From the IMG/VR virus record IMGVR_UViG_3300028588_000028, positions 1-58,978 of that record: 58,978 nucleotides of DNA; one strand, given 5' to 3'. Numbering within the stretch: the first letter of the stretch is position 1; every line of letters begins with the position of its first letter. The notes under the pieces were generated by a model. That model saw only the letters and a program-made list of their open reading frames with translations. It was not told where the DNA came from and searched no databases. Position numbers and translations under genes: made by a program. This DNA is from a virus (lineage: Duplodnaviria > Caudoviricetes). Of this stretch, positions 634 through 58,227 are shown one piece after another.

Positions 634-1162
634 GGTGAGCCGGGCTGGGCGACCCAAGGAGGAGTCCAGCGAGGAGCCCAAGAAGAAGCGCTTACGTCCG
701 CCTCCGAGTCGGTATGCAGGCTTCATGGATGGCACGCTGTCTGTGGAAGACCTGGACGACGAGGAGGTCATGCGCGGTCAGCTCAAGGCTCGCGACGGCA
801 CGTTCAAGGGTGGCGTGCCGCTGTCCATCCCTCGGGAGTTCTACACAGCCATCCGCATCGAACAGCAGAAGCGCTTCACCGAGGGGCTGAACCCGCTCGT
901 GCTGAAGGCGCTGGACACGCTGGCGTACGTGATGAAGCCGGACTACCGTGCACAGCCGGGCGACGCAGCCAAGGTCAAGGCCGCCACCTACATCATCGAC
1001 CGCTTCGCCGGGAAGACGCCCGAGAACGTGCAGCTCAAGGCCGAGGTCACCAACAAGTTCGAGGATGTGGCGGCTGATATCCTGATCGACGTTGACGAGC
1101 AGCGTAGTATTGCGAGTTCAATCACCAAGGAGGAGGAAGACGATGACCTCGGAGACATCTGA
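626..1162 (+). CDS. putative terminase small subunit
   Basis: GTG start overlaps the upstream stop; LSVEDLDDEEVMRGQLK and AATYIIDRFAGK motifs resemble actinophage TerS; lies upstream of TerL; TTA codon at 692. Confidence 0.55.
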   Translation: MAEVSRAGRPKEESSEEPKKKRLRPPPSRYAGFMDGTLSVEDLDDEEVMRGQLKARDGTFKGGVPLSIPREFYTAIRIEQQKRFTEGLNPLVLKALDTLAYVMKPDYRAQPGDAAKVKAATYIIDRFAGKTPENVQLKAEVTNKFEDVAADILIDVDEQRSIASSITKEEEDDDLGDI

Positions 1163-4471: not shown

Positions 4472-4488
4472 CGGGGTAAACTCTTCGG

Positions 4489-5934
4489 ATGACCACCACG
4501 ATCCCGAACACGCGCGACAACACTGGGCGCAAGAAGAGCATGTCCATGCGCAAGCTGTTCGACAAGGTGGAGTACAAGCCGCACGACGGACAGGTCCACG
4601 TCCACGCAGCCCGGCGGATGGCTCGGTTCCGCCTCGCGAGCTGCGGACGACGCTACGGCAAGTCCAACCTGGGCGGTCACGAGCTGACTGCTGCTGCGAT
4701 GAAGGCGTACTACGCCAAGGAAACCCTCAATCCGAAGGGCAAGCGCCACGAGTACTGGATCGTCGGCCCGGAGTACAGCGACGCAGAGAAGGAATTCCGC
4801 GTCATGTACAACGACATGGTCGGCTTGGGGATGGACTTCGACCAGCCGGGCACGTACTACAGCGCCGACGGAACCAACATGTCGGTGTCGCTGTTCGGCG
4901 GGCGCTTCCTCGTGCACGCCAAGAGCGCCAAGTACCCTCAGAACCTGGTCGGTGAGGCGCTCATGGGTGCGGTCTTCGCCGAGGCGAGCAAGCTCAAGCC
5001 CACGGTCTGGACCAAGTACATCCGCCCGACCCTCGCCGACTACGCCCGTGAAGGCTCCTGGGCGCTGTTCGCCAGCACTCCAGAGGGGAAGAACTGGTTC
5101 TACGACCTCTACATGCGCGGACAGAACCCAGCTGATCCGCAGTGGTGGTCAACGCGCCAGCCTTCTTGGACGAACAACTACCTGTTCCCCGGTGGCGCCA
5201 TGGATCCCGAGATCCTCGACATGAAGGGCGACATGACCGAGGAGAAGTTCAAGCAGGAGATCGAAGCCGACTTCACGGAGTTCACCGGACGCGTGTTCAA
5301 GCGCTTCTCCGAAGAGGACAACGTTGGAGACTACCCGTACGACCCGCGCTGGCCGGTGTACCTGGCTACAGATTATGGTTTCACCAACCCGAACGTGATG
5401 CTGTTCGTGCAAGTTGACATCTGGGGCAAGGTTTGGGTGTGCGCGGAGTACTACCAGCGCAACCGCACCAGCCAGGAGTTCGCAGCAGACATCGCCTCCG
5501 ACCCAAAACTGGGTGCTCTGGCCAGGAAGGCGTCGCTCCTGTACCCCGACCCAGAAGACCCCGGTGCTAGCGCCACCCTGGCCAACGCGCTGGGCGTCCT
5601 GCCCCAGAGCGGGACCGGGGGAGTCCTCGCCGATCGCATCGACCTCATCCGCCGCTGGCTCGTGCCCGGCCCGGACCACCTTGAGGACGGCGACCCCGAC
5701 AAGAAGCCCCGTCTGTTCTTCGATCGATCCTGCAAGGAGACGATCCGAGAGATGAACGACTATCGGTATCCGGAAACGGTGTCTGAGACCTCCAACGCCA
5801 AAGAGAACCCGATGAAGAAGGACGACCACGCTCCTGAGGCGCTCGGACGCTTCTTCGGAGGACACTTCAAGCAGGATGTCCAGGAGCAAGAGCACGCGAT
5901 CATCTCACACGCCCAGTATCAGCGGGGCCGGTAG
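4489..5934 (+). CDS. terL: terminase large subunit
   Basis: Walker A CGRRYGKS, Walker B-like VFAEA, STPEGKNWFY motif, nuclease TDYGFTNP and C-terminal DDHAPEALGRF. Confidence 0.95.
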   Translation: MTTTIPNTRDNTGRKKSMSMRKLFDKVEYKPHDGQVHVHAARRMARFRLASCGRRYGKSNLGGHELTAAAMKAYYAKETLNPKGKRHEYWIVGPEYSDAEKEFRVMYNDMVGLGMDFDQPGTYYSADGTNMSVSLFGGRFLVHAKSAKYPQNLVGEALMGAVFAEASKLKPTVWTKYIRPTLADYAREGSWALFASTPEGKNWFYDLYMRGQNPADPQWWSTRQPSWTNNYLFPGGAMDPEILDMKGDMTEEKFKQEIEADFTEFTGRVFKRFSEEDNVGDYPYDPRWPVYLATDYGFTNPNVMLFVQVDIWGKVWVCAEYYQRNRTSQEFAADIASDPKLGALARKASLLYPDPEDPGASATLANALGVLPQSGTGGVLADRIDLIRRWLVPGPDHLEDGDPDKKPRLFFDRSCKETIREMNDYRYPETVSETSNAKENPMKKDDHAPEALGRFFGGHFKQDVQEQEHAIISHAQYQRGR

Positions 5935-5959
5935 ACTCTCCTCCGACAAAGGAGGCATC

Positions 5960-13280: not shown

Positions 13281-14513
13281 ATGAGCACCTCGCTCGACAC
13301 GCTGCCCCAGGGCGCGATCGCATCCCGCCCCAAGAAGGGCATGAAGCTGGCTGCGCTCGACTTACGGAGCTTCGGCTTCGTGTCGGACATCGCCGGTGCC
13401 GACGGTCGCGCCGGTTACAACGACACCCGCGACGTCCTGCTCACGCAGACCATCGACGGCTTCGACCTGAACGACCTCTACTCGGAGTTCCAGGACGTCG
13501 TCAACGAGATGAACCGGAGCCGACAGGTCATCGTCGACTTCCTGACGTTCTCGGTGACGAACCCGTCCGAGCAGGTCCAGCAGCTCTCGAGCTTCGACTT
13601 CGAGCGCAGCACCGAGTACGGCGAGCCGCGGGGTCAGCGTCAGTCGCCCGGCAAGTTCACCCTCGGCTACGACTTCGACTTCTACGACCTCGGCCTGCGG
13701 TTCACCTGGCGCTTCCTCGCCGAGTCCACCGCTGCGCAGATCCAGGCCTTCAACAACGGCATCCTCGACGCCGACAACCGCCTGGTCTTCACCAAGGTCC
13801 TCGAAGCGCTCTACACCAACACCAACCGCCTGGCCGACATCAACGGGCGCGACGTCAACGTGTACTCGCTGTACAACGCCGACGGCACCGTGCCGCCCGC
13901 CGTCAAGAGCAACACCTTCGACGGCCAGCACACGCACTACATGGTGTCGGGCGGGGCCACCGTCACGCCGGAGGACCTCGACGACATCTACGAGAACGTC
14001 GCCGAGCACGGCTACACCGCCGCGTCCGGCACGGTCCACGTCCTCCTGGTCCACAGCCGCGAGGGCAAGGTCATCTCGACCTTCCGCATGTCCAACGGTG
14101 CGACGTACGACTTCATCCCCGCCCAGGGGCAGCCTATCGACCGCATCCTGGAGCTGGGCCAGTCCCTCGCCGGTGCGCAGCCCGCTGCCACCTACGCGGG
14201 CCTCGACGTCATCGGCAAGTACGGCAACCTGCTCATCGTGCAGGACGACCTGTTCCCCGCGGGGTACATCGCCGACGTCGCCACCGGTGGTCGCGCCAAC
14301 CTCAACAACCCGGTCGGCATCCGCGAGCACGAGAACGCCAGCCTCCGCGGCCTGAAGCTGATCAAGGGGCGCGACAACTCGTACCCGCTGATCGACAGCT
14401 TCTACAACCGCGGCATCGGCACCGGCATCCGTCAGCGTGGTGGCGCGGCCATCATGCAGATCAAGGCGTCCGGCGCGTACGTGCCGCCCGCTGCGTACGT
14501 CGCGTACCAGTAA
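13281..14513 (+). CDS. major capsid protein
   Basis: 410 aa, very strong GC3 codon bias, position after scaffold and decoration genes, followed by a hairpin; single TTA at 13362. Confidence 0.9.
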   Translation: MSTSLDTLPQGAIASRPKKGMKLAALDLRSFGFVSDIAGADGRAGYNDTRDVLLTQTIDGFDLNDLYSEFQDVVNEMNRSRQVIVDFLTFSVTNPSEQVQQLSSFDFERSTEYGEPRGQRQSPGKFTLGYDFDFYDLGLRFTWRFLAESTAAQIQAFNNGILDADNRLVFTKVLEALYTNTNRLADINGRDVNVYSLYNADGTVPPAVKSNTFDGQHTHYMVSGGATVTPEDLDDIYENVAEHGYTAASGTVHVLLVHSREGKVISTFRMSNGATYDFIPAQGQPIDRILELGQSLAGAQPAATYAGLDVIGKYGNLLIVQDDLFPAGYIADVATGGRANLNNPVGIREHENASLRGLKLIKGRDNSYPLIDSFYNRGIGTGIRQRGGAAIMQIKASGAYVPPAAYVAYQ

Positions 14514-16467: not shown

Positions 16468-16533
16468 CACACGCACGGTAGACTTCCCGCGACCGCCACA
16501 CCCCTGAAAACCAACTGCGAAGGGAGGCCAGAG

Positions 16534-17127: not shown

Positions 17128-17682
17128 ATGGCTCTCTCCACTGCAACCCCGTACGGCTTACGAGACGTCAAGCTCACCCCGTACACCGACGCAGCCGGTA
17201 CCATCCTCGGCACCCCTCTCGACCTCGACATCGCTCGCACCCTGAGCTTCTCGGACTCCGAGGACTTCGAGGAGCTGCGCGGCGACGACACGCTCAAGGC
17301 CAGCCACGGCCAGGGCGCGGGCGTCGACTGGGATCTCGAGTCCGGCGGTCTGCCCCTGGAGGCCTTCGCGCTCATGGGTGGCGGCATCGTCACCAGCACC
17401 GGCACCGGCCCCACCGAGAAGAAGGTCTACGCCAAGCTGGCGACGGACCAGCGACCCTACTTCAAGATCGAAGGCCAGGCCATCTCGGACTCCGGCGGCG
17501 ACCTGCACGTCGAGCTGTGGCGCTGCAAGGCGACCGGCGAGCTGTCCGGCGAGTTCTCGGACGGCGCGTTCTTCCTCACGTCGGCCTCGGGCATCGTCAT
17601 CGCCCCGCCGTCCGGCACCAACGCCAACAAGCTCTACACCTTCACGCAGAACGCCGCGGCGACCGCCATCGCGGTCGTCTAA
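17128..17682 (+). CDS. major tail protein
   Basis: PYGLRDVKLTPY, ELRGDD and RPYFKIEGQAISDSGGD; precedes the chaperone and tape measure genes; TTA at 17158. Confidence 0.85.
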   Translation: MALSTATPYGLRDVKLTPYTDAAGTILGTPLDLDIARTLSFSDSEDFEELRGDDTLKASHGQGAGVDWDLESGGLPLEAFALMGGGIVTSTGTGPTEKKVYAKLATDQRPYFKIEGQAISDSGGDLHVELWRCKATGELSGEFSDGAFFLTSASGIVIAPPSGTNANKLYTFTQNAAATAIAVV

Positions 17683-18586: not shown

Positions 18587-21500
18587 GTGGCCAACTACAC
18601 CCTCGGCGAGGCTCGTGGAAAGATCACCCTCGAGACCGACTTCACGAGCCTCGCCGAGGCGTCGAAAGCCATAGATGGATTAGAGAAAAAGCAAGGCAAG
18701 GCTGCCAAGAACTTCGACGGTGTCAACCGGGCCGTTCAGGATGTAGCCAACACCTCCTTAGTCGCGGGCGCAGCCGTCGCTAGCGGCTTCGCCCTCGCAG
18801 TCAAGACAGCCTCTGACTTCGAGTTCCAGATGAGCGCTATCCAGGCGGTCTCTGGAGCTACAGCTGATGAGATGGACCTCATCAACAAGGCCGCTCTGCG
18901 GATCGGCAAGGACACGGCTTTCGGAGCCACCGAAGCCGGTCAGGCCATGGAAGAGCTGGTCAAGGCCGGTGTCTCCGTCACAGACGTCTTAGGCGGCGCG
19001 GCTGACGCCACCGTGGCGCTCGCCGCAGCCGGAGGCGTAGACCTCCCCACCGCCGCTACCATCGCCTCGAATGCGATGAACCAGTTCGGTCTCGCAGCGA
19101 AGGATCTAGTCGGTGTCACCGACACCATTGCTGGCGCGGCCAACGCTTCTGCTATCGACATGGAGCAGTTCGCCTACAGCATGTCCCAGGTCGGCGCTGT
19201 TGCCAATCTCGCCGGTCTGAGCTTCAACGACACCGCCACCGCCATCGCAGAGATGGGCAACGCGGGCATCGTCGGCTCTGACGCCGGTACGTCTCTCAAG
19301 ACGATGCTGATGAACCTGCAGCCCAGCACTGAGAAGCAGACCACAGCCATGAAGGAGCTGGGCCTCGTCACCGAGGACGGCACCAACCGCTTCTACGACC
19401 AGGAAGGTCGTCTCAAGAGCCTCCGAGACATCCAGGAGATCCTGGGCACCTCGCTGGAGGGTCTTACCGCTCAACAGAAGCAGATGTATCTGGAGACCAT
19501 CTTCGGAGCCGACGCCATCCGTGGCGCTGCCGTTCTCGCGAAAGAGGGTGCAGCGGGCTACGACGAGATGACTGCGGCAATCGGCAAGGTCTCCGCAGCA
19601 GACGTCGCAGCGACTCGTCTGGACAACTTATCCGGATCGATCGAGCAGCTCAAGGGTGGCTTGGAAACAGTAGCTATCCAGATTGGTCAGCTGCTCATAC
19701 CCGTAGTGCGCCGCATGGTGGACTCGATCTCCGACTTCTTAGACTGGGTGATCAACCTCTCAGACGGCCAGAAGCAGCTACTGGCTACCGTCGGTCTGCT
19801 CGGAGCGGGGCTGCTGATCGGCCTCGGCATCTTCATCAAGACCACCTACGGCATCATCGAGTTCCGCAACGCACTTCTCGCTGCCAACGGTGCAGCTACG
19901 CTGTTCGGAGCCAAAGGTGCCCTGGAGAGCATCGTCGTCGGCCTTTCGCAGATGACCAAGGCTATGTTTGGAGCTAGCGTAGCCACGCGTGTGCAAACAG
20001 GATCGCTCTACGCATTCGGCCTGGCTTCTCGCAAGGCCGCCATAGCCGCACTCCTCTTCACCAAGGCTCTCCTCGCCAACCCCATCGTCCGTGTCATCGC
20101 CATCGTGCTGGCGCTCATCGGTGCTGTGGTGGCCTTGTCAGGTGGCTGGGAGGAGCTGGGCAAGATCTTCGCCCCTGTGGGCAAGGCTGTCATGAACATG
20201 TTCAAGGACATCGCCAAGGCTGTGAAGCCCCTGGTCGAAGCGTTCTCGGACATCGGATCCGAAGTCACCAAGGCTCTCGCGCCCGTGTTCACCGAGCTGG
20301 CTGCAGCTCTGCTTCCTGCGCTGCTGGCTGTGTTCCAGGCTCTCGCCGATATCCTGCTGCCCCTCGTGGAGATCTTCGCAGCAATCGCAGTACCCCTCAC
20401 AACCGCCCTGGTTCCGATCCTGTCTTCCTTGGTCAAGGTCGTCGGTCTGGTCTTGGGTGCATTCGCTCCTCTGATCGACATCCTCCTCAAGATCCTGGTT
20501 CCCGTTCTGGAGGCTGTCGCCTTCATCGTCGAGAAGGTCGCCGAGGCCATCCAGTGGCTCGCAGACAAGACCAAGGATGCATTCGACAACCAGATCCCCA
20601 AGCTTGTAGAGAAGCTCGGACCCAAGTTCCAGACTCTCTATGAGAACTACATCAAGCCTCTGGTCGAGAAAGCCATCGAGGCATGGAACAACTTCCGCAC
20701 CTTCATCCAGCCCGTGGTCGACTGGTGGAACAACACTGCAGCCCCCAACCTTGCTACTGCAGCGGACAAGGTCAAGAAAGCCTTCGCCGACGCCGTCACC
20801 GATATCAAGGACGCCTGGACCAAGCTCAAGGAAAAAGTACAGCCGGTTGCCGAGTGGTTCGTCAACACGGCGATCCCGAATATCGAGAGCGCTCTTGAAA
20901 CAGCCAAGACTCGTATCGCGGAATTCAAGGAAGGCTTCATCACTGCATGGGACAACATAAAGTCCCGAGTAGCACCTGTCATCACCTTCCTCAAAGACGA
21001 GGTGGGCAGCCGAGTCGCCGATGCATTCACCAACCTGCAAAACACTATCGGCTTCTTCCGAGATGTGTTCATGGGCGCTTGGGATCAGATCAAGTCCAAG
21101 GTCGAACCCGCTGCCAAGGTGGTCGAGACCTCGCACAACAAGATCAGCGACGCAGTTGACCGTCTCAAGACTCGAATCGAGCAGGCCAAGGAGCGCATCT
21201 CCGAGGCTTGGGATCGAATCCAGAAAGCTGTCGAGCCGGTTGTCGCAGCGCTCAAGCCTATCATCGAGGGCTTCCGAGACAACGTGCAAGATCTGCGCGA
21301 CAAGACGCAGGACGCTCGCAGCAAGATCGAGGATGCCTGGAGCAAGATCAAGCAGGCTATCCAGCCCGTAGTTGAGGCTCTGCGTCCGCTCATCGAGAAG
21401 CTCCGAGATGTGTTCGAAGAGCTGTTCGGCACCAAGGACGAGTCCAAGGGCATGGGCGGCGGAGCCAAGAAGTCGCAAGAAGCGGCTGACGGATTCGACA

Positions 21501-28213: not shown

Positions 28214-28263
28214 GCCCTCAGGTAGAATTCCCTGGTGAACCACACCTGCTACCCGGAGGCCTC

Positions 28264-28758
28264 ATGAAGCCCACTCTTGCCTATATGACATCCATCCCCG
28301 CTCGGTTACCCACAGCCCTGGCCAAGGTGCCGGGACGAAACTGGGCCTGGGTCTACTTCAAGGGCGCTGTGGCTGCGTGGGCCGTAGCCCTGCTCCTGAA
28401 CCAGCCCGCCCTCGTCACGGCAACCGCTCAGCCCGTATTCGTGCGGGTCTACCTGTTGATGTGCATCTTCGGATCGGTCATCTCGGTGGTGGGCATGATC
28501 ATGTCCTCACAACACGGGAGATGGATCCAGCCGGTGGGCGTGGTGATCGAGCTGTCAGGCATCTTGCTCGCGATGATCGGCCCTCTGTGCTACGGTCTGA
28601 CGCAGATCGGCATCATGGCTGACATGCCTGAAACTGCAGGAAACAGGATCCACCTGATCTTCCTGGCGCACGCACTCTTCGCAGGACTCTTCGCGCGCGG
28701 CTATGTGGTCGCTCGGAGGTTCTGGCGCGAGGCTACCGACAAGCGTAAGGCGGTCTGA
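28264..28758 (+). CDS. multi-pass membrane protein (lysis-associated candidate)
   Basis: GGAGG RBS; four hydrophobic helices; TTA at 28306. Confidence 0.75.
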   Translation: MKPTLAYMTSIPARLPTALAKVPGRNWAWVYFKGAVAAWAVALLLNQPALVTATAQPVFVRVYLLMCIFGSVISVVGMIMSSQHGRWIQPVGVVIELSGILLAMIGPLCYGLTQIGIMADMPETAGNRIHLIFLAHALFAGLFARGYVVARRFWREATDKRKAV

Positions 28759-44456: not shown

Positions 44457-46597
44457 AGTACGAGATGGAGCTGATCATCTCGAAGGACTTCGTGGACTAC
44501 TTCCTGGTGCTGTCGGAGGTGCTGCGCATCGCGAAGGACCGAGGCATCGCTATCGGCCCGGCGCGCGGATCGTCCGCCGCATCGCTCGTGTGCTACCTCA
44601 TCCGCATGACAGAGGTCAACCCGATGGAGTACCCGCTCATGCTGTTCGAGCGCTTCATCGACCCGAATCGTCACGATCTCCCCGACGTCGACACCGACAT
44701 CGAAGACGAGCGTCGCGACGAGGTCCGCAAGATCTTCATCGAGCTGTACGGCGAGGATCGCGTCGGCAACATCGGTACGTTCACCCGCTTCCGCGGCAAG
44801 AACGCCATCGATGATGTGGCGCGGGTTTACAGCTTGCCCAAGTACGAGATCGAGAGCGCCAAGAACTTCCTGGTCGAGCGCTCCGGAGGTGACAGCCGCT
44901 TCGACGCAGGTATCGAGGATACCGTGGCGATGTTCCCCCAGGTCAAGGAGGTCTTCGACAAGTACCCCGAGCTGTACCACTCGATGACCCTGGAGGGTAA
45001 CTACAAGAACTTCGGAGTACACGCGGCTGGCATCGTCGTGGGGCAGGAGCCGCTGAACCACTACGTCGCCACCTACGCGAAGCACAACGTCGGAGCCAAC
45101 AAGACCTCGCTCAAGGTCCTCTCGGTCGACAAGTACGATGGCGAGTCGCTGGGTCTGCTCAAGCTCGACGCGCTGGGGCTCAGCACTATGGGAATGATCG
45201 CCGACGCCATCAAGATGCTGGACATGTCTCTGGAAGAGCTTTACGACATCCCTCTGGACGACCAGGACACCCTGGACGCGTTCAACAGGGCGGACGTCGT
45301 GGGCATCTTCCAGTTCGAGGGGCGCACTACGAAGATGGTCGTCGAGGAGTTCAAGCCCACGAACTTCATGGACCTCGCCGCCATCAACGCTCTGTCGCGC
45401 CCCGGCCCTCTACACTCCGGAAGCACCGGCGACTTCCTCGCCATCCGGCAAGGTCACCAGGAGCGCGACGACCTGCACCCGATGGTCGCAGCCATCTGCG
45501 AGCCGACCGAGGGACAGATCATCTACCAGGAGCAGATCCTCCAGATCTGCGGCGACATCGGCAAGCTCCCCTGGACGCACCGTAGCGCCATCCGTAAGAT
45601 CATCAGCTCCAAGAAGGGCGAGTCCGCGTTCAACGCGCTGTGGGACGAGTTCTACAAAGGTGCGTCCAGCAACGGGATCGACGAGCCGACCGCTCGCGAG
45701 ATCTGGAAGCGCATGGTCACGGCTGGCACGTACGCCTTCAACATCGCACACTGCGTCAGCTACAGCATGCTGGGCTTCTGGGCCATGTGGCTCAAGGTGC
45801 ACCACCCTCGCGAGTTCTACGCCAGCCAGCTCAACAAGATCGGCATGGGCGACCAGTCTGCCCGGGACAAGTCCGTGGCGCTGATGCGGGACATGTCGGA
45901 CCCGCGCTTCGGCCGGACACTGCAGGTGCTGCCTCCGATGCCCGGCAAGAGCGGCATCTCCTGGAAGCCGGTGCAGGAGGGCGTCCAGGCGGGCTTCCTC
46001 CAGATCCCCGGTGTGGGGCAGAAGACAGCAGCGCTGATCGAGGAGTTCGACCGGGACATCGGCATCGAAGAGTGGGAGGATCTGCGCCTCGGAGTCAAGG
46101 GCGTCGGCCCCGGCACCATCCGCAAGATCGAGGAGTTCGCCGAACAGGACGACCCCTTCGGCGTCTACAAGGTCAAGCGCGACTCCGACGAGATCAAGCG
46201 CTGCATCCGCAAGGGCGACCTCCCCGGCATCCCGCTGCCGAACTGCTTCTCGGACGAGATCCCCTACGACGCAGTGGAGACCCGTCAGACGGTCATGGGC
46301 ATCCTCAAGAGCCGCAACCTGAAGGACCTCTTCGAGGACCACCGCAGCCGGACCGGCGAGGAGCTGGACCCCAAGACGGTCAAGGAGCCGGATCTCAAGG
46401 AGTCCATGACTCTGTACATGGAAGACGAGCGCGGCCTGATGACCGTGAAGGTGCCGCGGTTCCGCTACCAGGAGATGAAGGCGAGACTGTGGGACGCCAA
46501 GCTCAACCACGACTACATCATCGCAGTCACGAAGAAGTTCCCATTCCAAGGTAAGACGGTCCAGGCTACAGAGATCTATGTGATCGACCCGGACTGA
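44339..46597 (+). CDS. dnaE: DNA polymerase III alpha, polymerase part (in the -1 frame relative to the PHP part)
   Basis: GPARGSSAASLV, LLFERF-like LMLFERF, PDVDTD, GVHAAG, KLDALGL, IFQF, YQEQ and YAFN; the frame is open from 44222 and the first in-frame ATG is at 44339. Confidence 0.9.
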   Translation: MGERTSADVLWHWCREGWKYRGLDKRLTPAEKKEYSARVKYEMELIISKDFVDYFLVLSEVLRIAKDRGIAIGPARGSSAASLVCYLIRMTEVNPMEYPLMLFERFIDPNRHDLPDVDTDIEDERRDEVRKIFIELYGEDRVGNIGTFTRFRGKNAIDDVARVYSLPKYEIESAKNFLVERSGGDSRFDAGIEDTVAMFPQVKEVFDKYPELYHSMTLEGNYKNFGVHAAGIVVGQEPLNHYVATYAKHNVGANKTSLKVLSVDKYDGESLGLLKLDALGLSTMGMIADAIKMLDMSLEELYDIPLDDQDTLDAFNRADVVGIFQFEGRTTKMVVEEFKPTNFMDLAAINALSRPGPLHSGSTGDFLAIRQGHQERDDLHPMVAAICEPTEGQIIYQEQILQICGDIGKLPWTHRSAIRKIISSKKGESAFNALWDEFYKGASSNGIDEPTAREIWKRMVTAGTYAFNIAHCVSYSMLGFWAMWLKVHHPREFYASQLNKIGMGDQSARDKSVALMRDMSDPRFGRTLQVLPPMPGKSGISWKPVQEGVQAGFLQIPGVGQKTAALIEEFDRDIGIEEWEDLRLGVKGVGPGTIRKIEEFAEQDDPFGVYKVKRDSDEIKRCIRKGDLPGIPLPNCFSDEIPYDAVETRQTVMGILKSRNLKDLFEDHRSRTGEELDPKTVKEPDLKESMTLYMEDERGLMTVKVPRFRYQEMKARLWDAKLNHDYIIAVTKKFPFQGKTVQATEIYVIDPD

Positions 46598-46617
46598 AAA
46601 TATTTCTCGGAATTAGT

Positions 46618-46646
46618 TTGCTTTCTCGGAAACGATGGAGCATACT
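46618..46646 (+). promoter_or_regulatory. SigA-type promoter for the ncRNA, tRNA-like element and surface protein
   Basis: TTGCTT-N17-CATACT. Confidence 0.75.
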
Positions 46647-46651
46647 CGTCT

Positions 46652-46853
46652 ACGAGCCGACATTGATGTGGCGGCTCGGGTCTCGAAAAGCTACCTTGCG
46701 AGGAACACGGCAAGAGACCCGCACAACTACATATCCGAAAAAGACGGTGAACAGACTGGGACCACCTGGTTGACGACCACTTAAGCGATGACGGGCTTTT
46801 TCCCAACAGCCTGCTTGACTAGGACGGATTGGTCTCCGTGGAACGACCATCCC
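46652..46853 (+). ncRNA. candidate structured non-coding RNA of about 200 nt
   Basis: Follows a promoter and has no credible ORF; stems CGAGCCG/CGGCTCG, CGGGTCTC/GAGACCCG, GAAAAAG/CTTTTTC and ACGGA/TCCGT, with loop TGGTC complementary to downstream GACCA. Confidence 0.5.
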
Positions 46854-46938
46854 GGGTAGGTAGCTCAATTGGCAGAGCAGCGGGTGCACCCCTCAGAACG
46901 ACGAGAGCAAGATCCAGGTTCGAACCCTGGCCTATCCA
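46854..46938 (+). tRNA. tRNA-like element with aberrant anticodon arm (pseudo-tRNA)
   Basis: Acceptor GGGTAGG/CCTATCC, D-arm GCTC-AATTGGCA-GAGC, T-arm CCAGG-TTCGAAC-CCTGG; 29-nt segment in place of the anticodon arm. Confidence 0.7.
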
Positions 46939-46975
46939 CTCGCAACAACCCAATACAGATCACAAGGAGATCAAC

Positions 46976-47956
46976 ATGAACGCTCGCAAGATCGCGGCGA
47001 TGAGCGCCATCGCTGCACTCGGCCTGGGTGGGGCGCTCGTCGCCACATCGGCTGCGTCGGCCCACGACAAGACCGTCGACATCACCTGCACCAGCATCGG
47101 CATCATGCTCACCAACTACCCCTCGGGCAGCACGGTCGGCGGCACCATCGACGGAGTAGACCTCGGCACGAGCACCTTCGGCTCCGAGGGCTTCGCCTAC
47201 TCGCAGGCGCTCGACCCCGCCGTGCCGCACACCTACACCCTCGTCGTCAAGAGCGGTGACGGCAACTACGCCTTCGACATCAACGAGTCCGGCAAGTCGG
47301 ACCCGGCCTGCATCCCCGTGGTCGTCCCGCCGACCGAAGAGCCGACCCCGCCCGTCACCACTCCGCCCGTGGTCGACGTCGTCGTCCCGAAGATCCAGGA
47401 CTACCTCTCCTGCGACGGCGCGGCCTTCGTCCTCGACAACACCGGCTCCAACGTCGACGTCGTCTACACCATCAACGGGATCGAGTACCCGGTCGCTGCC
47501 GGCACCGCGCTGCACACCGATGCGGACGGCACGCTCATCGCCCCGAACGAGGTCGGCTACACCGTGACCGCGGCTGACCAGAGCTGGTCCTTCCCCGCGC
47601 TGACCGCCGAGGAGTGCCCCGTCGCCGAGGTCCCGCCCGTCGTCGTGCCGCCCACGGACGAGCCGACGCCGCCCACGGAGACCACGCCTCCCACGCCCAC
47701 CGAGACGCCCGTGGCTCCCGCGCCGGTCGCGACCCCCGGGGTCGCAGCGCCCATCCTCGTGACGGACAACGCCCCCGCCCAGCGGGTCGCAGCGGTCGAC
47801 ACGCCGGAGGGGCTGGCCTACACCGGTAGCAACCCGCTGCAGATCGGCATGGGTCTCGGCCTCGGTCTGATCATCCTCGTCGGCGGAGCCGCCCTCCTGA
47901 TGGCGTCCAAGGTGCGCCGCGCCAACCGGGTGATCGACGAGTCCCGGAACATCTAG
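46976..47956 (+). CDS. secreted cell-wall-anchored protein with LAxTG sortase signal
   Basis: AAGGAGA RBS; signal peptide ending AASA-H; Pro/Thr-rich stalk; LAYTG, TM helix and KVRR tail. Confidence 0.85.
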   Translation: MNARKIAAMSAIAALGLGGALVATSAASAHDKTVDITCTSIGIMLTNYPSGSTVGGTIDGVDLGTSTFGSEGFAYSQALDPAVPHTYTLVVKSGDGNYAFDINESGKSDPACIPVVVPPTEEPTPPVTTPPVVDVVVPKIQDYLSCDGAAFVLDNTGSNVDVVYTINGIEYPVAAGTALHTDADGTLIAPNEVGYTVTAADQSWSFPALTAEECPVAEVPPVVVPPTDEPTPPTETTPPTPTETPVAPAPVATPGVAAPILVTDNAPAQRVAAVDTPEGLAYTGSNPLQIGMGLGLGLIILVGGAALLMASKVRRANRVIDESRNI

Positions 47957-47963
47957 CTCCACC

Positions 47964-48003
47964 GAAGGCCACAGCTCCCACCAAGGGCTGTGGCCTTCTC
48001 CTA
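47964..48003 (+). terminator. intrinsic terminator
   Basis: GAAGGCCACAGC / GCTGTGGCCTTC stem. Confidence 0.7.
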
Positions 48004-48065
48004 AGCACAGAATCGGCGATATATCGCTTACTTGCAAATAGCCTAGAAGTTTTTCTGAGAATAGT

Positions 48066-48094
48066 TTGCCATAACTGCAACTTTGGAGGATACT
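48066..48094 (+). promoter_or_regulatory. SigA-type (early) promoter
   Basis: TTGCCA-N17-GATACT. Confidence 0.7.
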
Positions 48095-48138
48095 AGTACT
48101 ACAGGGCGGGAAGGACCGGCTCTGAGAAAGGCAAGACC

Positions 48139-48417
48139 ATGAAGATCTCCATCGCCGACGCTTTGCTCGTCATCCTGATCGACTCCGGCATCTCGATCGA
48201 CGGAACCAACATCATCGACTCCCTGCATTCCGCAGAGGACAACATCCTGGAAGCCAACAAGGACAGCCTCTTGGTCGGCAACCTCGACGAGTTCGGCGGG
48301 CTGTCCGAGAACGGACGTCGCAACGTCCTCCACACGAAGCGCGAGACGGAGTTCGTCGACCGCGTGATCGACGAGGGGATGATGTACGCGGGAGGCGTCG
48401 GCGGGCTGTTCAGCTAG
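48139..48417 (+). CDS. acidic hypothetical protein
   Basis: GAAAGG RBS after the promoter and hairpin. Confidence 0.75.
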   Translation: MKISIADALLVILIDSGISIDGTNIIDSLHSAEDNILEANKDSLLVGNLDEFGGLSENGRRNVLHTKRETEFVDRVIDEGMMYAGGVGGLFS

Positions 48418-48462
48418 TCCGGTAGACTGGTCGGGTCGGGGTTCGCAGCCCCGGCCTGGCTA

Positions 48463-48536
48463 GCCTCGGTACGCCAAATGGAAGAGCGAGCCGACTTAAA
48501 ATCAGCTGGTTGCGGGTTCGACTCCCGCCCGGGGTA
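48463..48536 (+). tRNA. tRNA-Leu(UAA), short variable loop, no encoded CCA
   Basis: Acceptor GCCTCGG/CCGGGGT, D-arm CGC/GCG, anticodon stem GCCGA/TCAGC (one C-A mismatch), loop CT-TAA-AA, T-arm GCGGG-TTCGACT-CCCGC, discriminator A. Confidence 0.85.
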
Positions 48537-48547
48537 CAAAAGAAAGT

Positions 48548-48576
48548 TTGCGAAATTGCAGTTTGTGGAGTAGACT
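48548..48576 (+). promoter_or_regulatory. SigA-type (early) promoter
   Basis: TTGCGA-N17-TAGACT. Confidence 0.7.
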
Positions 48577-48620
48577 GTAATTATGAAGCGGGAAGGACCT
48601 ACTTCTGGAAAGGCAAGAAA

Positions 48621-48908
48621 ATGTTCAACTACTCCGACCTCGCGGAAAAGACCCTCGCTGCTCTCACCCTCGGCTATGAGCGCGTCGGGGCTCTGGACGT
48701 CTTGGAAGAAGGCTTCGCCTGGTCGGGCCAGTTCCAGATCCACGGCGGCGTCGACCACGAGCCCCTGGTGTGGCTGTACTTCGGCTCGGTCAACACTTCC
48801 GCGGGCTACGGCGAATGGGTCTACCTGGCTTCCAACGGAGATGTGTTCTCCACCGAAGACGAAACCAGCGCCGACCCCGTCGACCCCATCTTCAACGTCC
48901 AACTCTAG
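48621..48908 (+). CDS. acidic hypothetical protein
   Basis: GAAAGG RBS after the promoter and hairpin. Confidence 0.75.
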   Translation: MFNYSDLAEKTLAALTLGYERVGALDVLEEGFAWSGQFQIHGGVDHEPLVWLYFGSVNTSAGYGEWVYLASNGDVFSTEDETSADPVDPIFNVQL

Positions 48909-48979
48909 GCGGCTGCGCGGGGTGGCTCTCGGGCTGCCCCGCCCTCCGGAATCTTTTTCTAGAAAGTTTGCTTTTGGAG

Positions 48980-49008
48980 TTGCGAAGTTGCAATTCATAG
49001 AGCATACT
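48980..49008 (+). promoter_or_regulatory. SigA-type (early) promoter
   Basis: TTGCGA-N17-CATACT. Confidence 0.7.
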
Positions 49009-49051
49009 AGTACTACAAGGCAAGGGAAGGACCCGAGCCGGAGGGAAAATC

Positions 49052-49258
49052 GTGATCAAGCACCTCGCTACCGCCGCGGTCCGCAACGAGAAGACCGGTC
49101 GCATGGAGCACGACTCGGGCGTGACGTTCTGCTACACCACGATCAAGGACTTGAACTCCACTCCCTTCGTGGACCAGGTCACCTGCAAGCGCTGCCTCAA
49201 GATGTCGGCCAGCATCGAAGCCGAACTGGCCGAGGGAACCATCCAGCTCACGAACTAA
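49052..49258 (+). CDS. small zinc-binding hypothetical protein
   Basis: H...C and VTCKRC motifs; GAGGG RBS. Confidence 0.7.
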   Translation: MIKHLATAAVRNEKTGRMEHDSGVTFCYTTIKDLNSTPFVDQVTCKRCLKMSASIEAELAEGTIQLTN

Positions 49259-49266
49259 AGTTTCCG

Positions 49267-49284
49267 GGAGGGCTTCGGCCCTCC
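49267..49284 (+). terminator. UUCG tetraloop hairpin terminator
   Basis: GGAGGGC-TTCG-GCCCTCC. Confidence 0.65.
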
Positions 49285-49287
49285 TCC

Positions 49288-49316
49288 TTGCTTAATCTCG
49301 CATAACAACGTAAGCT
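49288..49316 (+). promoter_or_regulatory. SigA-type (early) promoter
   Basis: TTGCTT-N17-TAAGCT. Confidence 0.65.
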
Positions 49317-49348
49317 CGTAACACAAGCCACCTCGGGAAGGACCCATC

Positions 49349-50488
49349 ATGGCCAACGACAAGATCCTCGACCGCGTCCGCGCTCTCCTCGCCATCGCAG
49401 AACACCCGAACACCCCGTCGCACGAGGCCGACACGGCGCTCACACAGGCGAACCGGCTCATGGCCAAGCACGCCATCGAGGAAGCCACCGCCCGTGCTGC
49501 GCAGACCCGGGAAGAGCGTCGCGCCGTCGAGCGCAAGATGTTCCGCATCCACGAAGGCGACTACAGCGAGTTCCTGGGTAGCATGCGCGCCATCCTCAGC
49601 GGCATCTGCAAGCACAACCGTGTACAGCTGGTGATCACTAGCTCGTACGACACCGAGCTGTTCGGCATGCACGACGACATCGTCTGGGTCGAGCAGCAGT
49701 ACATGCAGATCTACTTCGAGTTCCTGCGCAAGCTGCAGCCCAAGTGGGACGAGTCCATCGGATACGACGCCAACATCTACAACTTCAAGGTAGCTGGATA
49801 CCCCTGGTCGCAGATAGACTCCATCGCCCAGCAGAACGGGCACGCCAGCCGCGAGTCGATGAAGACCGAGCGCTGGACGCACCGCATCACCGGCGAGGAA
49901 ATGTCGAACACGTATCCGACGGGCTACTACCACAAGCTCCTGGGTGCGTACAAGCGCCACATGAGGGTCATCGGGGACACGACGCCCGTCGCCACGCAGA
50001 CGCACAGCCAGTACCGACGCGACTTCTCGGACGGATTCACGAGCCGCATCAGGGCGCGCCTGGAGAAGATGGCCGCGGACGCCGCGGGCGAGGTCGACGA
50101 GAGCGCAGCAGTCGTGCTGTACGACATGTCGCAGGAGATCAAGGAAGAGGTCTACGCGGCGCACCCCGATCTGCACCCGGACGAGGTCCGCAAGGAGATG
50201 CGCGAGTATCAGCAGGCTCGAGAAGAGCGGGCCGCCGCCGAGCGACAGGCGCGCGAGACCATGCTCAACCGCATGACCGACAAGCAGCGCGCCGCATTCC
50301 TCGACAAGGAGCGTCGCGAGGAAGAGCGCGAAGAGGCTCGTCAGGAGCGCTACTGGCGCAAGCAGGCCCAGAAGAACCGCGACTACGCCGGGCAGGTCGC
50401 CGGTCAGCGAGCAGCCAGCGCTGTGTCGCTCGACCGCAACGCCGGATCGACCGAGGCTGCCCGCGGTCGTCAGGAGCTGGGCGCATGA
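49349..50488 (+). CDS. DUF2786-domain protein
   Basis: N-terminal KILDRVRALLAIAEHPNTPSHEADTALTQANRLMAKHAI. Confidence 0.8.
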   Translation: MANDKILDRVRALLAIAEHPNTPSHEADTALTQANRLMAKHAIEEATARAAQTREERRAVERKMFRIHEGDYSEFLGSMRAILSGICKHNRVQLVITSSYDTELFGMHDDIVWVEQQYMQIYFEFLRKLQPKWDESIGYDANIYNFKVAGYPWSQIDSIAQQNGHASRESMKTERWTHRITGEEMSNTYPTGYYHKLLGAYKRHMRVIGDTTPVATQTHSQYRRDFSDGFTSRIRARLEKMAADAAGEVDESAAVVLYDMSQEIKEEVYAAHPDLHPDEVRKEMREYQQAREERAAAERQARETMLNRMTDKQRAAFLDKERREEEREEARQERYWRKQAQKNRDYAGQVAGQRAASAVSLDRNAGSTEAARGRQELGA

Positions 50489-50606
50489 TCGACTTGACGC
50501 CGATCTGGCTGCTCGGCGTGATCGCCGTGTTCCTGTGGTTCTATTGGGGAGCGAGCGCTCTTGAGAAACTTTTTCCCACAGTTACAGAAAAAGATCGCGG
50601 AATAGT

Positions 50607-50635
50607 TTGCGAATCTCGCGAACACGAGGGATAGT
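50607..50635 (+). promoter_or_regulatory. SigA-type (early) promoter
   Basis: TTGCGA-N17-GATAGT. Confidence 0.65.
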
Positions 50636-50683
50636 AGTACTACGCGGGAAGGACCCGCTGAACACCTGGGGAAGGACCCAACC

Positions 50684-50938
50684 ATGGACCGCATCGGCTC
50701 GCTCTACGTTGACAACACCACCGGCATCTCGTATCGCCTCATCAGCACATATCCCCACTACGCAGACGTTACGGCGGCACAGGCGAAAGCTTCTGAAGAG
50801 GGGCGAGACTTCACCAAAGAAGACTACGACGCCGTCCCGCTGCGCGCCAGCTACACCCGACAGAGCCTGTCCGGCGGCGTCAGTACAGTTGACGAACTTC
50901 CCGACCTGGCTATGCGCGTCTGGCAGCCCGCTGAGTAG
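50684..50938 (+). CDS. hypothetical protein
   Basis: ATG follows tandem GGAAGGACC elements. Confidence 0.7.
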   Translation: MDRIGSLYVDNTTGISYRLISTYPHYADVTAAQAKASEEGRDFTKEDYDAVPLRASYTRQSLSGGVSTVDELPDLAMRVWQPAE

Positions 50939-51018
50939 CAACCGGCGAAACCGCTGCGGCGGTCCGGTGTGGCGCCATCCCACCGCTGAAGAGCCTGGCA
51001 TAGAGAACGGAACAACGC

Positions 51019-51381
51019 ATGTCCACCACTGCCCGTAAGCTGCGTAAGCGCAGCGGAGTCAAGTTCGTCCACCCCGCCAAAGTCGGCACGCCGCTGGAGG
51101 ACCGCTCCAGTCAGCCCGTGATGCGTCCCAACGGCGACTTCGCGCCGAGCCGTCGCAAGGCCGCGAAGCTCGCCAAGCAGATCGCCGTCCGCGACGCCGT
51201 CGAGTTCAACCCCTCCGAGGCTCTCCCGCTCGACCCCAAGCCCTACCGCGTCGGCCGCAAGCGCTTCGCCACCTCCGGAGAAGGCTACAACGAGGCTCTC
51301 CAGAACGAGGGTGAACTGGTGTTCAGCCCGCGCAAGGACTTCAACCAGGACCGCGCCGTCTACCCCTCCATCCTCGGCTGA
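51019..51381 (+). CDS. basic hypothetical protein
   Basis: ORF with strong codon bias. Confidence 0.75.
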   Translation: MSTTARKLRKRSGVKFVHPAKVGTPLEDRSSQPVMRPNGDFAPSRRKAAKLAKQIAVRDAVEFNPSEALPLDPKPYRVGRKRFATSGEGYNEALQNEGELVFSPRKDFNQDRAVYPSILG

Positions 51382-57930: not shown

Positions 57931-58227
57931 ATGGCTGCTTTACAGCTCAGCAAGGTCAGCAAGTACGAGCAGACGTTCAAGACGCGGCACCGGCCTTCCG
58001 GGCGTCCGACGGACATCGAGGACGTCGCTCCGCTGTTCCCGGCTGCAAACGTGCACCCGGTCTTGGCGGACGTGGCTCGTCGTCGGGCCTACGCGCTCGT
58101 GCACCACGAGAACCGGGACGCACTGCGCCGGTACTACCAGGACGAGCTGAAGGTGCTCGAACGGCGCGGCGTGGCTCAGGTGGCGGCGGACTCGGGCAAG
58201 ACCCTCACGACTGCGGACGTGGCCTGA
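57931..58227 (+). CDS. hypothetical protein, probably first gene of the late operon
   Basis: GAGGA RBS; preceded by GGTAAACT; TTA at codon 4 (57940); alternative GTG start at 57916. Confidence 0.7.
   Translation: MAALQLSKVSKYEQTFKTRHRPSGRPTDIEDVAPLFPAANVHPVLADVARRRAYALVHHENRDALRRYYQDELKVLERRGVAQVAADSGKTLTTADVA

What the first reader, a model, noticed from the sequence alone, without database searches (positions are those of the whole stretch)
48463..48536. Candidate bldA-like switch: phage tRNA-Leu(UAA) with rare TTA codons placed at the start of late genes
Seen: the only canonical tRNA found in the genome has anticodon UAA and reads TTA. A manual scan found 10 in-frame TTA codons, all in the late/virion transcription region. 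They lie in the gene at 57931 (codon 4, 57940), putative TerS (codon 23, 692), major capsid (codon 28, 13362), major tail (codon 11, 17158), tape measure (18680, 18758, 18989, 19628, 19739; all in the first third) and the membrane gene at 28264 (codon 15, 28306). I found none in about 25 kb of replication and early genes. The capsid and tail genes are otherwise almost purely GC3, so a lone early TTA is conspicuous. The tRNA is itself preceded by the late-type -10 element GGTAGACT (48421-48428). Known: in Streptomyces the bldA tRNA-Leu(UAA) gates translation of TTA-containing genes. Inference: the phage uses a rare codon plus its own cognate tRNA to license or time virion protein synthesis, or to escape host depletion of that tRNA.
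Basis: partly seen in the sequence, partly recalled or inferred. Interest (0 to 1): 0.88.

Follow-up and report, generated by a model that had tools for sequence, protein, structure and literature searches.

The report
Phage leucine tRNA matching late-gene TTA
A soil-type actinobacterial phage carries its own transfer RNA for the rarest leucine codon, TTA, and uses that codon only in its particle-building genes, mostly near their starts, which suggests but does not prove that the phage ties particle production to its own tRNA.

Summary
ARAGORN and Rfam both find a tRNA with anticodon UAA at 48463-48536.

The pattern is only moderately beyond chance:
- Late-only placement gives P about 0.005 per site and 0.03-0.05 per gene, once the general A/T-ending excess of late genes is allowed for.
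- 5'-proximal placement in the five non-tape-measure genes gives P about 3e-4.
- TTA is the only non-CTC/CTG leucine codon in the capsid and major tail genes.

The tRNA has a short variable loop. That build proved to be the native tRNA(UAA) form in many Actinomycetota chromosomes, so it is probably charged with leucine.

Two syntenic, tRNA-less Microbacterium phages have no TTA in about 33,600 codons, but they also avoid other A-ending codons. No relative has TTA at the homologous sites. Another high-GC phage carries tRNA(UAA) with no TTA codons at all.

The GGTAGACT element upstream of the tRNA is a real, conserved motif, but relatives show it is not strictly late.

Best reading: a late-gene tRNA supply coupling. 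A bldA-like gate remains possible but untested.

The parts
48463..48536 (+). tRNA with anticodon UAA (reads UUA, and probably UUG by wobble). Short 5-nt variable loop (type I), 3-bp D stem plus C13.A22, A73, no encoded CCA.
   Evidence: ARAGORN. Rfam RF00005 at 45.9 bits with the alignment shown. Comparison with 100 high-GC cellular copies.
48421..48428 (+). GGTAGACT, a -10-like element 35 nt upstream of the tRNA 5' end. Its promoter function is inferred.
   Evidence: Sequence. GGTARAMT has 6 sites, all on the + strand and all intergenic, against 1.7 expected.
48437..48453 (+). Hairpin CGGGG-TTCGCAG-CCCCG between the -10-like element and the tRNA. It would lie in the precursor leader. Its role is unknown.
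   Evidence: Read directly from the sequence. No terminator-like site in 45500-51000.
692..694 (+). TTA, codon 23 of the TerS-like gene 626-1162.
13362..13364 (+). TTA, codon 28 of the major capsid gene 13281-14513. It is the gene's only Leu codon that is not CTC or CTG (36 Leu).
17158..17160 (+). TTA, codon 11 of the major tail gene 17128-17682. It is the gene's only Leu codon that is not CTC or CTG (19 Leu).
18680..19741 (+). Five TTA codons in the tape measure gene 18587-22486, at 18680, 18758, 18989, 19628 and 19739 (codons 32, 58, 135, 348 and 385 of 1299).
28306..28308 (+). TTA, codon 15 of the membrane-protein gene 28264-28758, which sits in a holin-like position.
57940..57942 (+). TTA, codon 9 from GTG 57916 or codon 4 from ATG 57931, in the first gene of the virion-side block. 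The gene is homologous to gene 1 of Microbacterium phage Ajin.
57876..57883 (+). GGTAAACT, same motif class, upstream of the TTA-bearing gene at 57916.
28221..28228 (+). GGTAGAAT, same motif class, upstream of the TTA-bearing membrane gene at 28264.
16477..16484 (+). GGTAGACT in the gap 16468-16533. GTAGACT is found at the homologous place in Ajin (12816) and AnnaSerena (12833).
5930..5937 (+). GGTAGACT overlapping the large-terminase stop codon. Ajin has GTAGACT 18 nt after its terminase stop.
4475..4482 (+). GGTAAACT, 7 nt upstream of the large-terminase ATG at 4489.

Best explanation
The element is a working, phage-borne tRNA-Leu(UAA). It has the short-variable-loop build that many Actinomycetota use for their own UUA reader, so the host leucyl-tRNA synthetase should charge it.

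It raises decoding capacity for UUA, and by U34 wobble probably UUG, at the stage when virion genes are translated. Because that supply exists late, TTA is tolerated only in virion and lysis genes. It may even be favoured there as the most A/T-rich leucine codon near 5' ends. Genes translated before the phage tRNA builds up stay free of it.

The result is a supply-demand coupling: the yield of capsid, tail, tape measure, TerS-like and membrane proteins depends partly on the phage tRNA. It need not be a timing switch.

Shown: the tRNA, its structural integrity, the codon distribution, and the motif.
Inferred: charging, wobble reading, time of expression, and dependence of late-protein yield on the tRNA.
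For: tRNA integrity.
- The tRNA is real.
- Against 100 high-GC cellular type-I tRNA(UAA) copies, it differs at columns conserved at 90% or more in only three ways: two compensatory D-stem pair swaps (10-25, 11-24) and nt 20. It is therefore under structural constraint.
- This build is native to the likely host phylum. ARAGORN found 117 tRNA(taa) of 73-79 nt in those 120 loci.
- S. coelicolor LeuRS charges a type I tRNALeu (PMC6614811, abstract and sections 19, 20, 22).

Codon pattern.
- TTA is 10 late and 0 early.
- TTG, the wobble partner, is 71 late and 36 early (Fisher 0.009).
- TTA is the only non-CTC/CTG Leu codon in the capsid (18/17/1) and major tail (10/8/1) genes. If such a codon were drawn from the genome's minor Leu codons (TTA 10 of 199), both being TTA has P of about 0.002 by my arithmetic.

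Relatives. The syntenic, tRNA-less Microbacterium phages have 0 TTA: Ajin in 17,995 codons and AnnaSerena in 15,574 codons, at the same GC3 of 0.82-0.87.

Precedent. Phage tRNAs serving late genes are a described pattern (PMC12482277 abstract).
Against: - Only ten codons in one metagenomic genome, with unknown host and no expression data.
- Ajin and AnnaSerena also have far fewer CTA, ATA, AAA and TTG codons. The TTA difference may therefore reflect a different host codon preference, not the tRNA.
- G007 is a 91-kb phage at 66% GC. It has a tRNA(UAA) but 0 TTA in 27,607 called codons, so phages can carry this tRNA without using TTA.
- The phage has more ATA (24), AGA (30) and CTA (34) codons than TTA, yet carries no tRNA for them.
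- The upstream gene 48139-48417 has its own promoter-like site at 48064, and no terminator was detected before the tRNA. The tRNA may therefore also be made early.
- Simple tolerance does not by itself explain the 5' bias (P = 3e-4).
Confidence: 0.45

Rival explanations
1. A true bldA-like gate. The 5'-proximal UUA codons are selected checkpoints. Ribosomes stall on capsid, tail, TerS-like, tape measure and membrane-protein mRNAs until the phage tRNA has accumulated. That tRNA is transcribed from the same promoter class as the virion genes. It therefore licenses or times particle assembly and lysis.
For: - All five non-tape-measure TTAs lie at codons 9-28. A rank test among the Leu sites of each gene gives P = 3.2e-4.
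- TTA occurs at 5 of 2,523 codons in positions 2-30, against 5 of 15,665 later (Fisher 0.007). The general rare-codon ramp is only 1.17-fold.
- TTA sits in the most codon-biased genes.
- GGTARAMT precedes the tRNA and two of the TTA-bearing genes (28264 and 57916). All 6 of its sites are intergenic and on the + strand.
- There is a conceptual precedent: phage suppressor tRNAs with recoded stop codons concentrated in structural and lysis genes (Borges et al. preprint abstract).
Against: - No timing data.
- No TTA at any homologous site that could be aligned in relatives: capsid L28 is CTC/CTG/CTA/CTT, tail L11 is CTG/CTC/Val/Cys.
- The codon 30 cut-off and the gene set were chosen after seeing the data.
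- Fisher's combined test on the same ranks gives only 0.013.
- GTAGACT also lies in the replication arm of relatives: Ajin 26540, AnnaSerena 45738 and 46970.
- Likely host clades carry their own tRNA(UAA), so the gate would leak.
- Late genes are already separated by their transcription units.
Confidence: 0.2
2. Coincidence plus composition. The TTA pattern is a by-product of lower GC3 in virion genes, a 5' A/T preference in highly expressed genes and small numbers. The tRNA is kept for unrelated reasons or is a neutral passenger.
For: - Late GC3 is 0.805 against 0.861 early. The late share of A-ending codons is 0.59 and of rare codons 0.60. That gives P(10 of 10 late) = 0.005-0.006, but only 0.04-0.05 if the six genes are the units.
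- Five of the ten TTAs are in one gene.
- The major tail gene has a general 5' dip in GC3: 0.72 in codons 2-30 against 0.96 afterwards.
- ATA (19:5), CAA (62:23) and GTT (79:33) are also skewed towards late genes.
- The finding was picked from a whole-genome read, so many patterns were implicitly tried.
- G007 carries the tRNA without any TTA.
Against: - The 5' bias is much stronger for TTA (6.2-fold) than for rare codons in general (1.17-fold).
- The capsid gene has almost no ramp (GC3 0.90 against 0.95), yet its single off-type Leu codon is TTA.
- The tRNA keeps its pairs through compensatory changes, which argues against a decaying passenger.
Confidence: 0.25
3. Counter-defence. The phage copy replaces a host tRNA-Leu(UAA) that is cleaved or depleted during infection by an anticodon nuclease, a toxin or host shut-off. 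It differs enough from the host copy to escape. The TTA codons are then incidental.
For: - The idea is proposed for mycobacteriophage tRNAs (PMC10264068, abstract and passages).
- The phage copy is at most 60 of 74 identical to any species-representative cellular copy. It has a C29.A41 mismatch in the anticodon stem where the cellular consensus is paired.
- It would explain carrying tRNA(UAA) with few or no TTA codons, as in G007.
Against: - The anticodon loop CUUAAAA is identical to that of the cellular copies. The search pattern required it, and it is conserved in all of them.
- No nuclease aimed at tRNA-Leu(UAA) is known to me in these hosts.
- UUA is so rare that depleting its reader would hurt few phages.
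- This reading does not explain the late-only, 5' placement of TTA.
Confidence: 0.1

Closest known systems
Streptomyces bldA (tRNA-Leu(UAA)) and its TTA regulon
   Same: The tRNA reads the rarest codon of a high-GC genome. TTA is confined to one functional class of genes. TTA lies near gene starts; a 5' bias of TTA in Streptomyces is something I recall, not something I checked here.
   Different: bldA is a host gene of the long-variable-arm type (type II; PMC6614811 abstract). Its accumulation and maturation are developmentally delayed. Here the tRNA is phage-borne and type I, the host is probably not Streptomyces, a host UUA reader probably coexists with it, and no delay has been shown.
Stop-codon recoding in phages with suppressor tRNAs (Borges et al., bioRxiv 10.1101/2021.08.26.457843; abstract seen)
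   Same: A phage-encoded tRNA is needed to read a codon that is concentrated in structural and lysis genes. It has been proposed to regulate late-stage expression.
   Different: In those phages the codon is a stop, so dependence on the tRNA is absolute. Here it is a sense codon that the host can probably read slowly, so any gate would be quantitative.
Codon-compensating or late-gene-serving phage tRNAs (for example Shigella phage Sf14, PMC12482277 abstract; Bailly-Bechet 2007 as cited in PMC10264068)
   Same: The phage tRNA matches codons used by late or structural genes more than by early genes.
   Different: Those phages usually carry many tRNAs and the codons are used often. Here there is one canonical tRNA for a codon used only ten times, with positional bias.
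UUA-dependent terminase expression in Streptomyces phage Hau3 (PMC10732093, sections 19 and 23)
   Same: A phage places UUA in a packaging gene, and the codon is proposed to couple phage development to the availability of the cognate tRNA.
   Different: Hau3 relies on the host bldA tRNA and on proposed translational bypassing of 10-nt inserts. Here the frames are intact and the phage brings its own tRNA.
Type I tRNA-Leu of Actinomycetota (S. coelicolor tRNALeu(CAA), PMC6614811)
   Same: A 74-75 nt tRNA with a 5-nt variable loop. The paper reports that the CAA species can replace bldA once its anticodon is changed to UAA (section 22).
   Different: The window tRNA carries UAA natively. It resembles the chromosomal type-I tRNA(UAA) found here in Micrococcales and other Actinomycetota.

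Membership tests
tRNA (Rfam RF00005) | Cloverleaf scoring above the curated threshold, with an intact acceptor stem, D, anticodon and T arms, and a 7-nt anticodon loop with U33 | tested here: met
   45.9 bits against a gathering score of 29, covering model positions 1-71. There are two non-standard pairs, C13.A22 and C29.A41. ARAGORN agrees.
tRNA-Leu, UAA isoacceptor | Anticodon UAA in a CUUAAAA loop | tested here: met
tRNA-Leu, UAA isoacceptor | Long variable arm (type II), as in nearly all bacterial tRNA-Leu | tested here: not met
   The variable loop is 5 nt (UGGUU). This does not exclude leucine identity. 117 tRNA(taa) of 73-79 nt were found in 120 cellular loci, mostly in Actinomycetota chromosomes. 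A type I tRNALeu is charged by S. coelicolor LeuRS (PMC6614811).
tRNA-Leu, UAA isoacceptor | Leucylation by the host LeuRS | not testable with these tools
   Only indirect evidence. U8, A14, G18G19 and A73 are present. The only departures from conserved columns of the cellular copies are compensatory D-stem swaps and nt 20.
bldA-type regulatory tRNA system | TTA codons restricted to a dispensable or late class of genes | tested here: met
   10 in 44 virion-side genes and 0 in 43 replication-side genes. Significance is modest: gene-level Fisher 0.026, or about 0.04 after adjusting for composition.
bldA-type regulatory tRNA system | Delayed accumulation or maturation of the tRNA relative to the start of the programme | not testable with these tools
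   The only evidence is a -10-like motif shared with virion-side gaps. The same core also occurs in the replication arm of relatives.
bldA-type regulatory tRNA system | The tRNA is the only efficient reader of UUA in the cell | tested here: inconclusive
   The host is unknown. Candidate host clades (Micrococcales and others) commonly carry a chromosomal tRNA(UAA).
bldA-type regulatory tRNA system | Conservation of TTA at the regulated sites in related genomes | tested here: not met
   None of the relatives aligned at the capsid, tail, tape measure or TerS-like sites has TTA there. All are distant, with at most 66% amino-acid identity.
Codon-compensating phage tRNA | The cognate codon is used more by the phage, especially its late genes, than by tRNA-less relatives or the host | tested here: inconclusive
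   TTA is 10 in the window against 0 in Ajin and 0 in AnnaSerena at equal GC3. Other A-ending codons rise too, host usage is unknown, and G007 is a counter-example.

The most novel reading that the evidence does not exclude
This would be a sense-codon licensing circuit in a lytic actinobacterial phage. A phage tRNA-Leu(UAA), transcribed with the virion genes, is the rate-limiting reader of single UUA codons. Those codons sit within the first 30 codons of the capsid, major tail, TerS-like, lysis-membrane and first late genes, with five more in the tape measure gene. Particle assembly and lysis would then be gated in translation by the phage's own tRNA. It would be a quantitative, sense-codon counterpart of both bldA and stop-codon recoding.
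Probability: 0.2. Interest if true: 0.75.

Novelty: new variant of a known kind. Interest (0 to 1): 0.5.

Why it matters
Why phages carry one or a few tRNAs is still debated; the main ideas are codon compensation, survival of host shut-off, and escape from tRNA-cutting defences.

This genome offers a very clean test case:
- one canonical tRNA;
- ten cognate codons;
- all in virion and lysis genes, mostly near their starts;
- close architectural relatives that have neither the tRNA nor the codon.

If the coupling is functional, it would show that a rare sense codon plus a private tRNA can tune or gate late protein synthesis outside Streptomyces. It would be easy to test by deleting the tRNA or replacing ten codons.

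A side result corrects a common assumption. Short-variable-loop tRNA(UAA) genes are widespread in Actinomycetota chromosomes and in phages.

Tried and rejected
- Close relatives. I looked for them to test conservation and found none. Megablast of 46000-52000 against the phage collection gave no match. The two proteins flanking the tRNA have no relatives in viral contigs. The capsid has none in genome contigs. The best capsid relatives reach 66% (a 14.9-kb IMG/VR fragment) and 61% (Microbacterium phages).
- IMG/VR records G001-G005 (capsid 45-50% identity) as comparators. I dropped them. Their GC runs from 44 to 65%, and my caller, tuned to high GC3, called only one gene in G003. G001 (GC 65%, no tRNA) has 5 TTAs with no 5' bias, which I report only as background.
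- G003 tRNA-Leu(UAA). It is 86 nt and of the long-arm type, in a 44%-GC phage. It is not comparable.
- Doubt about leucine identity. I first suspected that the short variable loop meant the tRNA was not a leucine tRNA, or had been re-aimed from a tRNA-Lys (best full-length phage hit: Lolly9 tRNA-Lys, 77%). I rejected this after finding the same build with the same D-arm layout in 120 or more cellular genomes.
- G006 as a second lone-tRNA phage. I rejected it. Its tRNA is of the cellular type and lies 172 nt from the contig end, so it is probably the host attachment-site flank of a prophage.
- attP reading for the window tRNA. I rejected it because the tRNA is full length and at most 81% identical to any cellular copy.
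- GTAGACT alone. It is not more frequent than chance (4 found, 3.4 expected). Only the extended GGTARAMT form, its strand and its intergenic placement are unusual.
- Literature. Five searches listed no paper describing a phage-encoded tRNA-Leu(UAA) paired with TTA codons confined to late genes. I recalled that Hardy et al. 2020 discussed bldA, but the listing shows 0 occurrences of the term.
- Unseen material. Supplementary tables of PMC10264068 and PMC10732093 were not seen and may hold per-codon data on phage TTA use.
- Tools not used. Structure, complex, atlas, sequencing-run and read-laying tools did not bear on the question.

Full report
**What the window is**

The window is a whole IMG/VR virus record of 58,978 bases, rated 100% complete. 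It has 62% GC and a 137-nt direct terminal repeat. All credible genes lie on the + strand.

Gene order matches that of Microbacterium phages such as Ajin and AnnaSerena:
- Virion side: terminase, portal, capsid, tail and tape measure genes, then minor tail proteins and membrane proteins.
- Replication side: SNF2 helicase, RecB-like nuclease, RecA-like ATPase, primase/helicase, oxidoreductases, a split DnaE-like polymerase and ThyX.

Identity to these phages is low; the capsid reaches at most 61%. Tail proteins hit Arthrobacter, Microbacterium and Bifidobacterium phages. No Streptomyces phage appeared in any of these searches. The host is therefore unknown, but it is probably a Micrococcales-like actinobacterium.

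**The tRNA**

ARAGORN and Rfam agree on a tRNA with anticodon UAA at 48463-48536. Its features are:
- a 5-nt variable loop (type I);
- a three-pair D stem with C13.A22;
- one C.A mismatch in the anticodon stem;
- discriminator A73;
- no encoded CCA.

I first took the short loop as a warning sign, because bacterial leucine tRNAs are normally long-armed. Two collection scans with a pattern taken from the anticodon-to-T-loop stretch changed that view.
- Phages. I examined 80 of the 120 loci, and all 80 hold an ARAGORN tRNA(taa) of 73-79 nt. The loci range from 31 to 65% GC.
- Cellular genomes. Most hits lie on large chromosomal contigs of Actinomycetota, including Arthrobacter-group genera, Microbacterium, Herbiconiux, Rothia, Nocardia, Corynebacterium and Mycolicibacterium. 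ARAGORN found 117 tRNA(taa) of 73-79 nt in the 120 loci, usually as the only tRNA within 8 kb.

The short build is therefore the native UUA reader in many likely host clades. This fits the report that S. coelicolor LeuRS charges a type I tRNALeu (PMC6614811).

The window copy is at most 60 of 74 identical to any of these cellular copies. I aligned it with the 100 of the 120 loci that have at least 55% GC. At columns conserved at 90% or more, it departs only by two compensatory D-stem pair swaps and one D-loop base. This looks like a diverged but constrained gene, not a decaying one.

**The codons**

Gene calls. My own codon-likelihood caller gave 87 + strand genes. Because the caller penalises TTA, I also listed every ORF that holds an in-frame TTA. 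In the replication arm, only two such ORFs score positively, and both need starts that overlap the upstream gene by hundreds of bases.

Start-codon checks show the five 5'-proximal TTAs lie inside the genes:
- The major tail gene has a single possible start.
- The capsid N-terminus is homologous to longer relatives from residue 2-8.

Late-only placement. TTA is the rarest codon in the genome, and all ten lie in the 44 virion-side genes. How unusual is that?
- Late genes have lower GC3 (0.805 against 0.861) and hold 59-60% of A-ending or rare codons.
- Ten of ten late therefore has P of about 0.005.
- Five TTAs sit in one gene. Counting six genes instead gives about 0.04. A gene-level Fisher test gives 0.026.
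- The late restriction is suggestive, not strong.

5' placement. This signal is stronger.
- The five TTAs outside the tape measure gene sit at codons 9, 11, 15, 23 and 28.
- Ranking each among its gene's leucine sites and simulating gives P = 3.2e-4. Fisher's combined test on the same ranks gives 0.013.
- The general rare-codon excess in codons 2-30 is only 1.17-fold.
- These are after-the-fact tests on a pattern that drew attention.

The most codon-biased genes. The capsid gene uses 18 CTC, 17 CTG and one TTA. The major tail gene uses 10 CTC, 8 CTG and one TTA. Neither has any TTG, CTT or CTA. TTG, which a UAA anticodon normally also reads, is twice as common in late genes (71 against 36).

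**Relatives**

- No relative that could be aligned at the capsid, tail, tape measure or TerS-like sites has TTA there. The capsid and tail leucines are conserved but spelled CTC, CTG, CTA or CTT. At 34-66% protein identity, silent sites are saturated, so this is weak evidence against selection.
- Ajin (all 86 CDS, 17,995 codons) and AnnaSerena (65 CDS in the first 49,999 of 56,707 bases, 15,574 codons) have no tRNA and no TTA at the same GC3.
- Both also have far fewer CTA, ATA, AAA and TTG codons. The contrast may reflect host preference as much as the tRNA.
- G007 is a 91-kb, 66%-GC phage carrying tRNA(UAA), tRNA-Leu(UAG) and tRNA-Thr. It has no TTA in 27,607 called codons. A phage can clearly keep this tRNA without using the codon.
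- G006 looked like another case, but its tRNA is of the cellular type and sits at the contig end. It is probably host flank.

**The promoter-like motifs**

Two classes of intergenic motif stand out.
- Class one is GTTTGC, about 17 nt, then CATACT-like, followed by a GGAAGGACC leader. It occurs at ten intergenic sites, nine of them in the replication arm, and is conserved in Ajin.
- Class two is GGTARAMT. It has six sites against 1.7 expected, all on the + strand and all intergenic. Five are on the virion side (4475, 5930, 16477, 28221, 57876) and one is 35 nt upstream of the tRNA.

The GTAGACT core recurs at homologous places in both relatives: after the terminase gene in Ajin, and after the tail terminator gene in Ajin and at the syntenic gap in AnnaSerena. 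The element is therefore real. It also occurs before Ajin's helicase gene and twice in AnnaSerena's right arm, so the label 'late-type' is not secure.

The tRNA could also be reached by read-through from the promoter-like site at 48064, since no terminator was detected in between. Timing is therefore open.

**Weighing the explanations**

I put a late-gene supply coupling first (0.45). On this reading the phage tRNA makes UUA, and probably UUG, cheap to read while virion genes are translated. TTA can then persist, or be preferred near 5' ends, in those genes only.

A designed bldA-like gate (0.2) would best explain the 5' bias and the shared motif. It lacks any timing evidence or conservation, and a host reader probably exists.

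Chance plus composition (0.25) cannot be dismissed with ten codons in one genome.

Counter-defence (0.1) would explain tRNA carriage without TTA use, as in G007. It does not explain where the codons sit.

**Comparison with what is known**

The closest known systems are:
- bldA, which reads the same codon with a similar logic, but is a host gene of the long-arm type under developmental control;
- phage stop-codon recoding with suppressor tRNAs concentrated on structural and lysis genes;
- late-gene-serving phage tRNAs;
- the proposed UUA sensing in the terminase of phage Hau3.

Five literature searches listed no report of a phage-borne tRNA-Leu(UAA) paired with late-only TTA codons. I rate this a new variant of a known kind and of moderate interest. 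The case is clean and testable, but it rests on one uncultured genome.

Noticed in passing
window 46854-46939 (+): A second tRNA-like gene (Rfam 46.3 bits; ARAGORN 'Val cac'). Its acceptor, D and T arms are perfect, but it has 12 extra bases and no canonical anticodon arm, and it contains a GGGTGCACCC palindrome. Its 5' half and the odd insert resemble the 'tRNA-OTHER/Undet' annotated in Gordonia phage Smoothie and its relatives. It lies about 200 nt downstream of a GTTTGC/CATACT promoter-like site at 46616.
   Followed up: partly
Genome-contig loci L181-L300 and viral-contig loci L051-L170: tRNA(UAA) genes with a short variable loop (73-79 nt) are widespread. They occur in chromosomes of Actinomycetota, especially Micrococcales, and in phages of all GC contents. 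This contrasts with the statement in PMC6614811 (section 19) that almost all bacterial tRNALeu are type II.
   Followed up: partly
window 2706, 29279, 31868, 36143, 39180, 46616, 48064, 48546, 48966, 50605 (+): A promoter-like class made of GTTTGC, about 17 nt, and a CATACT-like hexamer. It is followed at most of the sites by a GGAAGGACC leader motif 10-30 nt before the start codon. GGAAGGAC has 11 of its 12 copies in intergenic gaps. The same architecture (GATTTGCG...GGAGCATACT...GGGAAGGAACCC) is conserved in Microbacterium phage Ajin.
   Followed up: partly
window 1-137 and 58842-58978: A 137-nt direct terminal repeat at 99% identity. It is either a physical terminal redundancy or an assembly overlap of a circular or permuted genome. 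The last ORF (58510-) runs on through it.
   Followed up: no
window 36071-36131 and 57434-57692: Clusters of ATTGTGG(GG) repeats (ten copies in all) in the two largest non-coding gaps, 35747-36294 and 57486-57915. They may be iterons or regulator-binding sites.
   Followed up: no
window 43353-44456 and 44339-46597: The DnaE-like DNA polymerase III alpha is split into a PHP-domain ORF and a polymerase ORF in different frames. Ajin and AnnaSerena are annotated the same way.
   Followed up: no
G006 (L171-L173), 42411-42485: This IMG/VR record, classed 'linear', ends 172 nt after a cellular-type tRNA(UAA). It looks like a prophage cut out together with its host tRNA attachment-site flank.
   Followed up: partly
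window 692, 13362, 17158: Three of the five 5'-proximal TTA codons are followed by a CGN arginine codon (TTA-CGT, TTA-CGG, TTA-CGA). Two of those arginine codons are themselves A/T-ending minor codons.
   Followed up: no
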